Source: Escherichia coli
GTDB lineage: Bacteria; Pseudomonadota; Gammaproteobacteria; Enterobacterales; Enterobacteriaceae
Strand: one strand, 5' to 3'
Assembly (NCBI RefSeq): GCF_041248615.1
Contig: NZ_CP158426.1
DNA length: 64,000 nucleotides
Every line of letters begins with the position of its first letter. Position 1 is the stretch's first letter. Below are positions 61,921 through 63,826 of the stretch, in pieces. The notes under the pieces were generated by a model. It saw only the letters and a list, made by a program, of their open reading frames with translations, was not told where the DNA came from and made no database searches. Both the position numbers and the translations under genes were made by a program.

Positions 61921-62403
61921 TCATCGAAGGCATTGCGTCCTGATGTATTCCTGAAGCGTTCTCAGTGCTGTTTGGTCGCGGATAATTCCGTCCCGGACAC
62001 CGAGAACGTTTCGTCCAGCAACTGGAGAGAGTTCGACGGTGGCATCATTGCCCATGCCGGAGGCGCTGGAGGTTTCGGCTGAGGATGGCACAGGGCATTT
62101 TCCTTTGACGAGCACCCTGCCACCATTATCAAGCTTGCGCCGAAGAGCATCATTTTTAGCTTTCGCATCAGCTAACTCCTTCGTGTATTTAGCATCGAGT
62201 ACATCAGCAGCACGCTGGCGTTGCTGCATGTTAGTAATGGTGGCGGTCGCCTGCTTCAGCTCACTGACTTTTTTATCTCGCTGTTCTTTGTAGGCGATGG
62301 CGTTATCACGGTAATGATTGACCGCCCACGACAGGCAGACGATGATGCAGATAACCAGAGCATAAATAATCGCGGCGACTCTGCTCACTGATCTATCCCC
62401 CAA
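61921..62403 (-). CDS. Rz: i-spanin Rz
   Basis: 160-aa ORF; strong recalled match to lambda Rz ([25 protein letters not shown]...). Confidence 0.85.
61962..62168 (-). CDS. Rz1: o-spanin Rz1 (embedded lipoprotein)
   Basis: Embedded [24 protein letters not shown]... with lipobox and Pro-rich segment, as lambda Rz1. Confidence 0.8.
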
Positions 62404-62918
62404 CAGGCTAATGCGCTTTCCTGGTCACGACGAATAACCTGTCCGTAGCAGTTATTTGAACGTGTGCGGCAATCACGCCCACCGTCCTTAATCCACCAGC
62501 GAATCGACTCACAGGCACCTTTACGATCACCGGCATTAAGCCGCTTATAAAACGTCGACGGGAAACACTTACCGGGACCAATGTTATAGGGACAGAATGA
62601 CGCTATACCCGCTTTCTGTGGTTCGGTCAGTGGTACTTTAATATTGCGCTCCACCCATGCCAGCGCCTTATCACGTTCAATAGCGTTAACCTGGTCGCAT
62701 TTTTCCTTCGACAGCTTCATTCCCGGTATGACGGGCTTACCATCCACCATTGTGGCACCACGACAGATGGTCCATATACCGGAAGCATCGCGGTATGCCG
62801 TTGTGTGGTTACCTTCTTTTTCATCCAGAAACTGGTCGAGAATATCAGGCGCAGGCGCACCGACGGCAATCAGTGCCAGAACGGCAGCCGACAGGCCGTA
62901 TCTGATTTTTGCGTTCAT
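62385..62918 (-). CDS. Endolysin R, phage lysozyme with N-terminal signal-anchor-release (SAR) segment
   Basis: 177-aa ORF; hydrophobic Gly/Ala-rich N-terminus then lysozyme-like core; follows a pinholin-type S gene. Confidence 0.8.
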
Positions 62919-63023
62919 GGATATTTATCAGGATTTATCGGTTTCTGAACCCTGGATATGTTTATCTGTCCCGGCCTGTTGAATCAGGCGGGGAAAAGGT
63001 AAAGACAATCAAGAGGATTATTT

Positions 63024-63296
63024 ATGGGCAATAACACCATTTCTCTACAGGAGTTGCTCGACTGCATTTCCAGGCTTCGGGATGATGTAAATGCCCTCAC
63101 TGTTGCATTTTCATATCTGGCCTTCTCAATTCCCAGAGAACAAATGCAACCAACACTGGCATCGCTTCTGCTTGAGTCACGCAACCCCAAATGGTCCCAG
63201 GAACAACAAAATTCTTTCAAGTGGCTGGCGGCATTACTGGAAGAAAAATATGCTGGTGAAATTACCATTTCGGCGGAGTCTTCAGAGAACCAGTAA
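63024..63296 (+). CDS. Hypothetical protein encoded antisense within the lysis cassette
   Basis: 90-aa ORF with RBS aagagga 7 nt upstream of ATG; located between R and the gene downstream of S. Confidence 0.4.
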   Translation: MGNNTISLQELLDCISRLRDDVNALTVAFSYLAFSIPREQMQPTLASLLLESRNPKWSQEQQNSFKWLAALLEEKYAGEITISAESSENQ

Positions 63297-63606
63297 TTCT
63301 TCCCGGTAGCTTTCCTTTGTAGGTTATCCACACATTCTGCGCCTCTAAAATTATGGGGCGCTTTTCCGGCGACTGCTCATCCCCTTCACATAACCCGGCA
63401 GCACCATCCAGGAAGAACTGTCTAATGCTCCTTCTCGCTGCTGCCTCATAAAACTCCAACGCGGCACCTTCAACACGGTCCAGCGAGATGTCCAGGTCAA
63501 AAATTTCACCGTCAAAGCGTTTTTTGTCCCGTAAGGCTACAGTTACCGCCACTTTATTCTCAAAATTGCGGACTCCTTTCACAACCAGTTCATAGTCTTG
63601 TGTCAT
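63262..63606 (-). CDS. Hypothetical protein between holin and endolysin
   Basis: ORF 63262..63627; start placed at MTQDYELVV overlapping the holin stop. Confidence 0.5.
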   Translation of the reverse strand: MTQDYELVVKGVRNFENKVAVTVALRDKKRFDGEIFDLDISLDRVEGAALEFYEAAARRSIRQFFLDGAAGLCEGDEQSPEKRPIILEAQNVWITYKGKLPGRITGSLKTPPKW

Positions 63607-63610
63607 TGGA

Positions 63611-63826
63611 TTACTCTCTTCTCGCAACCTTACGCCTGTCTTCTTTAATCTTGAAATAAAGGTTTGTCAGATACGTCAGCAGGCCAAAAACCAGACTACC
63701 CAGCACACCGATTGCAGCCCACTGTGACGGAGTTACTTTATCGAGTAACTGCAATGCCCAGAAACCAGCATTACCAGCCGATGTGCCATAGGCGATACCT
63801 GTTGTTAACTTATCCATTGATTTCAT
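63611..63826 (-). CDS. S: Holin S, phage 21-type pinholin (class II)
   Basis: 71-aa ORF; strong recalled match to S21 ([16 protein letters not shown]...[13 protein letters not shown]...[16 protein letters not shown]). Confidence 0.85.

What the first reader, a model, noticed from the sequence alone, without database searches (positions are those of the whole stretch)
61921..63826. Phage-21-type lysis cassette (pinholin plus SAR endolysin plus embedded spanins) with two extra genes
S is a 71-aa pinholin-type holin and R has a SAR-like N-terminus, the pairing expected for pinholin systems; Rz1 is fully embedded in Rz. Two additional ORFs sit between S and R: a 115-aa minus-strand gene and a 90-aa plus-strand gene with a good RBS that is antisense to the cassette. 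The plus-strand gene would be transcribed against late transcription, suggesting lysogenic expression.
Basis: partly seen in the sequence, partly recalled or inferred. Interest (0 to 1): 0.4.

Follow-up and report, generated by a model that had tools for sequence, protein, structure and literature searches.

The report
Ordinary lysis cassette with antisense add-on gene
This is a standard phage-21-type lysis gene cluster of an E. coli prophage that also carries a real but unstudied 90-residue gene on the opposite strand (family 'Ybl58'), an add-on found in about one fifth of complete E. coli genomes.

Summary
On the minus strand of window 61921-63826 lie a P21-type class II holin (71 aa, dual start MKSM), ydfR (DUF1327, 114 aa), a T4-lysozyme-family endolysin with a SAR-like N-terminus (177 aa), and Rz with Rz1 embedded in its +1 frame. 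This cassette type is common and already described as pinholin plus SAR endolysin.

The only non-routine part is the plus-strand ORF at 63024-63296. It is a real gene. It is open in all 11 family members examined. dN/dS is 0.17-0.37 at dS of 0.5-1.1. It has homologues in Citrobacter, Yersinia, Serratia and Sodalis. AlphaFold predicts a confident three-helix fold (pLDDT 82). The 115-aa ORF antisense to it is only a shadow frame.

The gene lies in a 292-bp segment that is missing from otherwise near-identical cassettes. It occurs in 1161 of 5426 complete E. coli genomes. It also survives as the only intact gene of decayed cassette fragments (next to iha, on conjugative plasmids). Distant relatives sit antisense inside other phage late operons.

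This is moron behaviour, so expression in the lysogen is plausible but untested. I found no convincing promoter. The function is unknown: there is no Pfam, NCBIfam, PADLOC, PDB or fold match.

The parts
63611..63826 (-). S: class II (phage-21-type) holin, 71 aa. Starts at Met1 and Met4 (MKSM), two hydrophobic segments.
   Evidence: PF04971, E 7e-34, residues 5-67. PGAP calls it 'essQ, class II holin family protein'. Kyte-Doolittle maximum 2.02 at residues 37-53.
63262..63606 (-). ydfR: DUF1327 protein, 114 aa, co-oriented with the lysis genes. Its last 12 codons overlap the 3' end of the plus-strand gene.
   Evidence: PF07041, E 5e-42. phrog_406 and phrog_2091. PGAP 'YdfR family protein'. No hydrophobic segment.
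63024..63296 (+). ybl58-family gene (PHROG 2411): 90 aa, 10.2 kDa, pI 4.5, no transmembrane segment. Predicted three helices (8-35, 38-52, 59-77) and a disordered tail.
   Evidence: PGAP 'hypothetical protein' WP_032354201.1.
63011..63017 (+). Shine-Dalgarno sequence AAGAGGA, 6 nt before the ATG of the plus-strand gene.
   Evidence: Sequence. Conserved as (A/T)GAGGA in all E. coli copies, including the iha-linked one.
62975..63266 (.). 292-bp segment present here but replaced by 19 nt in phage PhiR40_1. It holds 49 nt of upstream sequence plus codons 1-81 of the plus-strand gene. The last 9 sense codons and the stop of that gene are the antisense of the ydfR 3' end.
   Evidence: Pairwise BLAST borders: window 62800-62974 and 63267-63450 match L002 2501-2674 and 2694-2877.
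62970..62993 (+). Inverted repeat CCCGGCCTG-TTGAAT-CAGGCGGGG between the R start and the plus-strand gene. The inner 5 bp are kept in all alleles. Role unknown.
   Evidence: Fold z-score -3.8, 0 of 200 shuffles as stable. Allele comparison.
63339..63365 (+). Hairpin GCGCCTC-N9-GGGGCGC followed by TTTT, 43 nt after the plus-strand stop codon and inside ydfR. A weak candidate terminator for the plus-strand gene.
   Evidence: Folds. Retained, with U.G changed to U-A, in the iha-linked copy L087, where ydfR is destroyed. The terminator scan did not call it.
62385..62918 (-). R: endolysin (T4-lysozyme family), 177 aa. SAR-like N-terminus (residues 8-24, rich in Ala/Gly/Ser, after K4 and R6). Motif E35-x8-D44-x5-T50.
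   Evidence: PF00959, E 7.5e-25. PDB 3hde/3hdf (known to me as the phage 21 endolysin, the output lists them only as 'Lysozyme'), E about 1e-16. RrrD 4zpu. Kyte-Doolittle maximum 1.91 at residues 11-27. Motif read from the translation.
61921..62403 (-). Rz i-spanin with an N-terminal transmembrane segment. PGAP uses the GTG start at 62388.
   Evidence: PF03245, E 5e-28. Kyte-Doolittle maximum 3.0 at residues 9-25..
61962..62168 (-). Rz1 o-spanin lipoprotein precursor (lipobox VAGC, Cys19, proline-rich), fully embedded in Rz in the +1 frame.
   Evidence: PF06085, E 3.8e-21. Coordinates and frame. Not annotated by PGAP.

Best explanation
Window 61921-63826 is an ordinary lysis cassette of a Qin-like lambdoid prophage. 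S is a phage-21-type holin (a probable pinholin) that depolarises the membrane. R is a SAR-type endolysin that is exported by Sec, stays tethered, and is released on depolarisation. Rz/Rz1 are embedded two-component spanins. ydfR is the usual DUF1327 passenger between S and R.

Into the ydfR-R junction a 292-bp unit has been added. It carries an independent gene on the opposite strand for a 90-aa acidic, cytoplasmic three-helix protein (family 'Ybl58', PHROG 2411).

Shown:
- The gene is protein-coding and under purifying selection.
- It is facultative in the cassette.
- It persists when the lysis genes around it decay.
- Its relatives sit antisense within other late operons, or in the chromosome of other Enterobacterales.

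Inferred:
- It is a moron. That means it is transcribed on its own rather than from the late promoter, and therefore in the lysogen.
- Its product acts as a small protein-binding modulator of a host or phage target that benefits the lysogen.
- It is not part of the lysis machinery.
For: Cassette:
- Pfam hits for S, YdfR, R, Rz and Rz1.
- R matches PDB 3hde/3hdf (known to me as the phage 21 endolysin) and RrrD structures.
- The hydrophobic segments are as expected.
- 99% of Stx phages have a predicted SAR endolysin plus pinholin (PMC8136144).
- The same S-ydfR-R-Rz order occurs in mEp460, PhiR40_1 and many other phages.

The plus-strand ORF is a real gene:
- It is intact in 44 of 48 unique IMG/VR variants, with no indels over 741 bp.
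- PGAP calls it in every sampled E. coli genome that has it.
- dN/dS is 0.17-0.37 at dS 0.5-1.1 against copies that are 70-85% identical in nucleotides. Fisher p = 3e-7.
- The sense frame is open in 11 of 11 family members. The antisense shadow frame is open in only 2 of 11.
- A profile search finds 81-97-aa relatives (25-45% identical to the window protein in the alignment), but only 19 clusters among 1.84 billion representatives.
- The family extends to Citrobacter, Yersinia, Serratia and Sodalis.
- AlphaFold pLDDT is 82.

Moron behaviour:
- It is a clean 292-bp presence/absence difference relative to PhiR40_1.
- It is present in 1161 of 5426 E. coli genomes.
- Copy L087, next to iha, keeps remnants of the R start and the ydfR 3' end, yet only this ORF is intact.
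- A copy lies on 75 plasmids, most of them conjugative.
- It is kept in the E. coli B Rac remnant, and in ST131 where an IS3 element has broken the cassette.
- Distant members lie antisense between tail genes L and M, after a gpI-like gene, and near terminase.
- Morons are defined as independent transcription units within phage genomes (PMC3594210).
Against: - No promoter is established. The scan finds none in 62919-63023.
- The conserved (G/T)A(C/T)AAT hexamer ends only 14-17 nt before the ATG, so a start site there would cut off the conserved Shine-Dalgarno sequence.
- The downstream hairpin has only four U's, and the scan did not call it a terminator.
- I found no transcript, translation or phenotype data.
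- In E. coli lysis cassettes the gene is always next to ydfR. Phage-borne relatives are also paired with a convergent small late-strand gene. So a functional link to the late operon is not excluded.
- Only 3 of 50,697 phage records carry it.
Confidence: 0.7

Rival explanations
1. The plus-strand gene, or its transcript, regulates the lysis cassette. Convergent transcription and an mRNA antisense to the ydfR 3' end and the ydfR-R spacer could damp leaky R/Rz expression in the lysogen or tune lysis timing. Alternatively, the protein could bind the C-terminal tail of YdfR.
For: - In E. coli lysis cassettes the gene always sits next to ydfR, with a 35-nt 3' overlap.
- Five of seven phage-borne relatives examined are paired with a convergent late-strand small gene whose C-terminus resembles the YdfR tail (RITGSLKTPP / QIFGDLKKPP / KITGSLFAP / RLTGDILIP). 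Between the window and Yersinia, ITGSL differs only at synonymous sites.
- The motif occurs in 0.3% of background ORF tails.
- The gene is rarer in sequenced phages (3 of 99 records with the same flanks) than in genomes (1052 of 2991).
Against: - The gene stays intact and under purifying selection where ydfR and R are destroyed or absent: L087, L086, the plasmids, and the Serratia and Sodalis chromosomes.
- PhiR40_1 keeps the YdfR tail without the gene.
- The partner proteins show no BLASTP similarity, and hhalign aligns only 14 residues at 4% probability.
- The tail motif was defined after seeing the data.
- Phage Chlobot carries the gene and, as far as I can tell, was isolated as a free phage (source: puddle water/mud), so it is compatible with normal lysis.
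Confidence: 0.15
2. The gene is a prophage-encoded defence or superinfection-exclusion factor: a small cytoplasmic inhibitor that blocks an incoming phage or another mobile element.
For: - Its moron position and antisense orientation, wide but patchy distribution, and presence on conjugative plasmids and in islands.
- Its small, acidic, helical nature is typical of phage-encoded protein inhibitors. That comparison rests on my own knowledge.
Against: - No PADLOC hit.
- No neighbouring defence genes are consistently linked.
- A conserved chromosomal orthologue between dinI and bssS in Serratia-like genomes looks more like a housekeeping or regulatory small protein.
Confidence: 0.12
3. The plus-strand ORF is not a gene. 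It is a chance or shadow ORF opposite a real minus-strand gene (the 115-aa ORF at 63331..62984), or it is non-coding spacer.
For: - The two frames share third codon positions, so the minus frame shows an equally low pN/pS (0.255 against 0.367).
- The third-position excess among close variants is weak (10, 11 and 15 variable sites at codon positions 1, 2 and 3).
Against: - The minus ORF has extra stops in 39 of 48 close variants and in 9 of 11 family members, and it starts with GTG inside ydfR.
- It has no PHROG, Pfam or NCBIfam hit.
- The plus frame is open in every member, has homologues down to 25% identity, and gives a confident predicted fold.
Confidence: 0.02

Closest known systems
Phage 21 lysis cassette (S21 pinholin, R21 SAR endolysin, Rz/Rz1)
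   Same: - Holin of the same Pfam family, 71 aa with the MKSM dual start.
- Endolysin of the same fold, with a weakly hydrophobic N-terminal segment and the E-x8-D-x5-T motif.
- Rz1 embedded in Rz.
   Different: - R is 177 aa, of the rrrQ / H-19B / 933W subtype. It aligns with PDB 3hde (the phage 21 endolysin, by my knowledge of that entry) only at E 9e-17.
- Two extra genes lie between S and R.
- Pinhole formation and SAR release are inferred from sequence only.
Qin cryptic prophage lysis region of E. coli K-12 (essQ - ydfR - rrrQ - rzpQ)
   Same: Same gene order and the same families. PGAP transfers the names essQ and rrrQ. Upstream are Q (ydfT), cspF, cspB and ynfU, as in Qin.
   Different: From my knowledge of the K-12 map (not checked with the tools), K-12 Qin has no gene between ydfR and rrrQ. 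Here a 292-bp unit with the ybl58-family gene is inserted, and YdfR has the longer '...ITGSLKTPPKW' tail.
Phage morons (for example lambda bor and lom, HK97 gene 15); definition in PMC3594210
   Same: A discrete extra gene present or absent between conserved late genes. It is spread among mosaic phages, lies on the strand opposite the operon it interrupts, and is retained in defective prophages.
   Different: The defining promoter and terminator are not demonstrated. The gene borrows its last 9 sense codons and its stop from the antisense of ydfR. No lysogen phenotype is known.
PHROG 2411 / UniProt 'Ybl58' / RefSeq WP_032354201.1 'hypothetical protein'
   Same: The window protein matches phrog_2411 end to end (E 4e-57). 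It is identical to a RefSeq protein seen on at least 1000 contigs.
   Different: None. This is the family itself. It has no Pfam or NCBIfam model, no structure, and no paper in the searched library.

Membership tests
Phage-21-type class II holin / pinholin | Sequence membership in the P21 holin S family, about 70 aa. | tested here: met
   PF04971, E 7e-34, covering residues 5-67 of 71.
Phage-21-type class II holin / pinholin | Dual translational starts (holin and antiholin) and two transmembrane segments, the first weakly hydrophobic (SAR-like). | tested here: met
   MKSM start. Segment 8-27 ([20 protein letters not shown]) is rich in Gly/Ala/Ser/Thr. A second segment at about 34-55 has a Kyte-Doolittle value of 2.0. 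Sequence level only.
Phage-21-type class II holin / pinholin | Forms small heptameric pinholes that depolarise the membrane but do not let endolysin pass. | not testable with these tools
   Needs physiology or biochemistry.
SAR endolysin | Lysozyme catalytic domain with the E-x8-D-x5-T motif. | tested here: met
   PF00959, E 7.5e-25. E35, D44 and T50 read from the translation. PDB 3hde and 4zpu matches.
SAR endolysin | N-terminal signal-anchor-release domain: weakly hydrophobic, rich in Gly/Ala/Ser, not cleaved. | tested here: inconclusive
   Residues 8-23 ([16 protein letters not shown]) contain 9 of 16 Gly/Ala/Ser. The Kyte-Doolittle maximum is 1.91. Pro follows both possible AxA-type sites, which argues against cleavage (my reading). 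Release from the membrane is not testable here. The literature predicts SAR for this endolysin type (PMC8136144).
Embedded two-component spanin (Rz/Rz1) | An i-spanin with an N-terminal transmembrane segment, and an o-spanin lipoprotein gene wholly inside it in the +1 frame. | tested here: met
   PF03245 and PF06085. Rz1 at 61962-62168 lies inside Rz at 61921-62388, frame offset 1. Lipobox VAGC.
YdfR / DUF1327 | Match to the family model over its full length. | tested here: met
   PF07041, E 5e-42, model positions 1-92 of 93. [quoted passage not shown] That was not tested for this protein.
Moron | A discrete insertion between genes that are adjacent in related phages. | tested here: met
   292 nt here against 19 nt in PhiR40_1, with sharp borders. 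Also absent in mEp460.
Moron | Own promoter and terminator, making an independent transcription unit expressed from the prophage. | tested here: inconclusive
   No consensus promoter. The -10-like hexamer lies too close to the Shine-Dalgarno sequence. There is a weak hairpin followed by U4. No expression data.
Moron | Confers a benefit on the lysogen. | not testable with these tools
   Only indirect evidence: purifying selection, and retention in decayed prophage fragments.
Known anti-phage defence proteins (PADLOC) | Match to a defence-system protein model. | tested here: not met
   No hit for the window protein or for P0073. P0080 gives only a marginal hit, E 0.005, to PDC-M71B.

The most novel reading that the evidence does not exclude
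The Ybl58 gene may not be a lone passenger. It could be one half of a conserved convergent gene pair embedded in phage late operons: a small acidic helical protein made in the lysogen, and a late-strand partner (here YdfR) that carries a conserved C-terminal peptide (..KG.L....ITGSL..PP). The two would interact as a lysogeny/lysis checkpoint, possibly through RNase E, which K-12 YdfR binds. In non-E. coli phages the Ybl58 gene is additionally controlled by a previously undescribed structured 5' leader. That leader is a hairpin with the invariant loop GGAUGGCUGAUUAAC, a compensatory stem and a possible pseudoknot with an upstream UCAGCC.
Probability: 0.1. Interest if true: 0.6.

Novelty: new member of a known kind. 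Interest (0 to 1): 0.3.

Why it matters
The cassette itself adds nothing new. The antisense gene is worth a modest follow-up for four reasons:
- It occurs in about 21% of complete E. coli genomes, including ST131 and E. coli B.
- A diverged copy sits beside the virulence gene iha, and another lies on conjugative plasmids.
- It is clearly under selection.
- It belongs to a tiny family restricted to Enterobacterales, with no domain, no structure and no literature.

If it is expressed from the prophage, it is a candidate lysogenic-conversion or regulatory factor that annotation pipelines label only 'hypothetical'. E. coli B/BL21 already carries it, so it is easy to test.

Tried and rejected
- **Minus-strand 115-aa ORF (63331..62984) as the real gene:** rejected. 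It shares third codon positions with the plus frame, so its low pN/pS is an artefact. It is broken in relatives and has no homologues.
- **Codon-position bias among close variants:** uninformative (10/11/15). More diverged copies were needed.
- **Function by homology or fold:** nothing specific turned up.
  - Pfam, including E up to 10 on 20 members.
  - NCBIfam and PADLOC.
  - PDB sequence profile.
  - Foldseek against PDB and BFVD.
  - The afdb50 library was not available.
- **Rfam** on the region and on related loci: no match.
- **Promoter and terminator scan:** nothing near the gene.
- **Literature:** a search for ybl58, the WP accessions and phrog_2411 found nothing.
- **Homology between the convergent partner genes:** not supported. 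BLASTP finds nothing and hhalign aligns only 14 residues. Only a short C-terminal motif recurs.
- **Collecting more distant loci:**
  - Failed with an alignment query.
  - Yielded little with P0071 and P0073.
  - The 14-mer scan returned mostly chance hits, with 5 real ones.
  - The genome-contig scan returned only 2 loci.
- **The 5' hairpin element of distant members:** absent from the window and from all E. coli copies.
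Full report
**1. What is there**

The window is E. coli NRZ14408 chromosome NZ_LT599825.1, positions 4547546-4611545 (100% identity). The finding lies in the late region of a Qin-like lambdoid prophage. The gene order is integrase ... XRE repressor ... Q (ydfT) - cspF - cspB - ynfU - essQ - ydfR - hypothetical - rrrQ - lysis protein ... terminase.

On the minus strand:
- S, 63826..63611: 71 aa, PF04971 'phage P21 holin S', E 7e-34.
- ydfR, 63606..63262: 114 aa, PF07041 DUF1327, E 5e-42.
- R, 62918..62385: 177 aa, PF00959.
- Rz, 62388/62403..61921: PF03245.
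- Rz1, 62168..61962: PF06085, entirely inside Rz in the +1 frame.

On the plus strand, 63024..63296 encodes 90 aa, with AAGAGGA 6 nt before the ATG. There is also a purely mechanical 115-aa GTG ORF (63331..62984) antisense to the 90-aa ORF.

**2. The cassette is ordinary**

- S has the MKSM dual start and two hydrophobic segments. The first is rich in Gly/Ala/Ser/Thr.
- R has K4 and R6, then a weakly hydrophobic stretch, [16 protein letters not shown]. It also has E35-x8-D44-x5-T50.
- R aligns with PDB 3hde/3hdf, which I know as the phage 21 endolysin (the output lists them only as 'Lysozyme'), and with RrrD structure 4zpu, at E about 1e-16.
- Rz has an N-terminal transmembrane segment. Rz1 has a VAGC lipobox.
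- The same S - ydfR - R - Rz arrangement is annotated in mEp460, PhiR40_1 and hundreds of other phage records.
- A survey of Stx phages reports a predicted SAR endolysin plus pinholin in 99% of them (PMC8136144).
- ydfR is a named, common passenger. K-12 YdfR was recently shown to bind the catalytic half of RNase E, and it may bind RNA (PMC13232886).

Pinhole formation and SAR release are inferred from sequence only.

**3. The plus-strand ORF is a real gene**

*Annotation and spread.* PGAP annotates it as a hypothetical protein (WP_032354201.1). DNA covering at least 80% of it occurs in 1161 of 5426 complete E. coli genomes. It was annotated in every row of an evenly spaced sample of those hits. 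The exact protein has been seen on at least 1000 contigs, and UniProt names the family 'Ybl58'. It matches phrog_2411 (function unknown) end to end.

*Close variants.* Across 80 IMG/VR loci (48 unique 741-bp sequences) there are no indels, and 44 of 48 keep the full ORF. Codon-position bias and pN/pS are not decisive here, because the antisense 115-aa frame shares third codon positions and mimics the signal (0.367 against 0.255).

*Diverged copies resolve it.* I compared three copies:
- The ST131 copy (85% nucleotide identity over the first 79 codons).
- A copy next to iha (71%).
- A plasmid copy (73%).

All keep the plus frame open. dN/dS is 0.17-0.37 at dS 0.5-1.1, while the shadow frame acquires 1-3 stops. 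Fisher p = 3e-7.

*Distant relatives.* A profile search of 1.84 billion representatives finds only 19 clusters. They include 81-97-aa relatives that are 25-45% identical to the window protein in the alignment. A second search extends the family to Citrobacter and to a conserved gene of about 92 aa in Serratia, Sodalis, Chania, Gibbsiella and Chimaeribacter. A genome scan added Yersinia massiliensis. The sense frame is open in 11 of 11 members examined, the shadow frame in only 2 of 11.

*Predicted structure.* With the 20-sequence alignment, AlphaFold gives helices at 8-35, 38-52 and 59-77, mean pLDDT 82, and a disordered tail. The protein is acidic (pI 4.5) and has no transmembrane segment.

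**4. How it sits in the cassette**

Against PhiR40_1 the homology runs over 62800-62974 and 63267-63450. So 292 nt (62975-63266) here replace 19 nt there. That unit holds 49 nt of upstream sequence and codons 1-81. The last 9 sense codons and the stop of the gene are the antisense of the ydfR 3' end. This explains the 35-nt convergent overlap, and also why family C-termini are variable and disordered.

Of E. coli genomes that match these flanks, about a third carry the unit (1052 of 2991). Of phage records with these flanks, only 3 of 99 do: Chlobot, vB_EcoS-783R2 and phiSTEC1575-Stx2k. The phage collection is dominated by Stx phages, so this contrast is only suggestive.

**5. Behaviour elsewhere**

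- The iha-linked copy (L087) still shows the degraded R start, the spacer and the ydfR-3' hairpin. It therefore derives from such a cassette, yet only this ORF is intact.
- The plasmid allele lies after an autotransporter gene between IS remnants. It is found on 75 plasmids, 70 of them conjugative.
- E. coli B keeps the gene in its Rac remnant.
- In ST131 an IS3-family element separates it from R.
- Distant members lie on the strand opposite to the late genes: between tail genes L and M (L091, L100), after a gpI-like gene (L226), and beside small genes next to terminase (L089).
- Other distant members are chromosomal: between dinI and bssS (L098, L099), or as an orphan gene in Sodalis.

This is the distribution expected of a moron (definition in PMC3594210).

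**6. What is not established**

*Expression.* The consensus scan finds no sigma-70 promoter in the 105-bp spacer and no terminator. A -10-like hexamer, (G/T)A(C/T)AAT, is conserved 14-17 nt before the ATG in all E. coli copies, including L087. A start site there would remove the equally conserved Shine-Dalgarno sequence. A hairpin plus UUUU lies 43 nt after the stop and is retained in L087, but it is weak. I found no expression data and no paper.

**7. Explanation and rivals**

*Best reading (0.7).* This is an ordinary pinholin / SAR-endolysin / spanin cassette with the usual ydfR passenger, plus a moron that encodes a small cytoplasmic protein-binding modulator. The moron is expressed independently of the late promoter and is not part of the lysis machinery.

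*Lysis-regulation rival (0.15).* This rests on the obligatory adjacency to ydfR in E. coli, and on a recurring C-terminal peptide in the convergent late-strand partner genes of phage-borne relatives. It is weakened by the gene's persistence without any partner. The partners also show no detectable overall homology.

*Defence role (0.12).* This has no direct support.

*'Not a gene' (0.02).* This is effectively excluded.

**8. Side observations in related loci**

Six distinct distant members carry a hairpin about 25 nt before their ATG. Its loop is invariant (GGAUGGCUGAUUAAC). Four of its seven stem pairs show compensatory changes: 92.5% of cells are paired, and the covariation score is 0.369 against 0.200 in shuffles (0 of 500 reach it). 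An invariant upstream UCAGCC is complementary to the loop's GGCUGA, which allows a pseudoknot. Rfam has no match. A covariance model finds the element only in those loci, not in the window or in any E. coli copy. With six sequences this is a lead, not a result.

**9. Verdict**

The cassette is already known. The antisense gene is a genuine, widespread and uncharacterised moron-type gene, so it is a new member of a known kind and of modest interest.

Noticed in passing
L089:4938-5003, L091:4940-5003, L096:757-823, L100:394-458, L175:4783-4848, L226:2866-2931 (not in the window): Distant Ybl58-family genes in Yersinia-type and other prophages have a conserved 5' hairpin. The loop is invariant (GGAUGGCUGAUUAAC). 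Four of seven stem pairs show compensatory changes. An invariant upstream UCAGCC is complementary to the loop's GGCUGA, so a pseudoknot is possible. A variable hairpin lies between the two in four of six. There is no Rfam match, and the element is absent from all E. coli copies.
   Followed up: partly
window 63262-63330 (-); L091:5261-5330 (-); L226:3146-3215 (-); L100:687-750 (-); L089:5248-5320 (-): The late-strand gene that converges on each phage-borne Ybl58 gene ends in a similar peptide..KGKLPGRITGSLKTPPKW..IKGNIFSDQIFGDLKKPPSY..GELYSEKITGSLFAPL....GKLILRDGSLVSF..KGGQLRYKRLTGDILIPLES. The rest of these proteins is unrelated. Between the window and Yersinia, ITGSL differs only at synonymous positions. 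The motif was defined after seeing the data; its background rate is 0.3%.
   Followed up: partly
window 62970-62993: A strong inverted repeat (CCCGGCCTG-TTGAAT-CAGGCGGGG, fold z -3.8) straddles the left border of the 292-bp unit, between the R start and the plus-strand gene. The inner 5 bp are kept in all alleles, and the outer pairs differ between alleles. It would also form in the late mRNA.
   Followed up: partly
L087:3017-3289 (E. coli E41 chromosome) and L086:3014-3283 (plasmid NZ_CP180703.1): Diverged Ybl58 copies (about 60% amino-acid identity) lie outside prophages. One is divergent from the adhesin/siderophore receptor gene iha. The other follows an autotransporter gene on IS-rich plasmids; that allele is on 75 plasmids, 70 of them conjugative.
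   Followed up: partly
L088:1752-3295 (E. coli ST131 strain 4224): In ST131 an IS3-family element (ISEc52-like, frameshifted) is inserted about 30 nt upstream of the Ybl58 start, between it and the endolysin gene. The ORF stays intact, and the IS end could supply promoter elements.
   Followed up: no
L098:5001-5279, L099:1463-1741: In Serratia-like genomes a conserved 92-aa family member sits between dinI and bssS in the chromosome. It has no phage genes around it and no 5' hairpin element.
   Followed up: no
window 61781-61933 (-) and 61415-61702 (-): Two small late-strand ORFs follow Rz. One is a 50-aa protein with an N-terminal transmembrane segment that overlaps the Rz stop; it is also annotated in mEp460 and PhiR40_1. 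The other is a 95-aa protein with no family hit. It is followed by the only good intrinsic terminator of the region (61747..61728, minus strand).
   Followed up: partly
window 60467-60793 (-): A 108-aa lipoprotein-like protein (LSALAVGC) with a TonB C-terminal domain (PF03544, E 2.6e-13) is encoded between the lysis genes and terminase. It is another moron-like passenger of this prophage.
   Followed up: partly
phage collection versus E. coli genomes: The Ybl58 unit is present in only 3 of 99 phage records that share the ydfR/R flanks, and in 3 of 50,697 records overall. It is present in 1052 of 2991 E. coli genomes with those flanks. This could be sampling bias, because Stx phages dominate the collection, or the unit may be associated with prophages that are seldom isolated as free phage.
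   Followed up: partly
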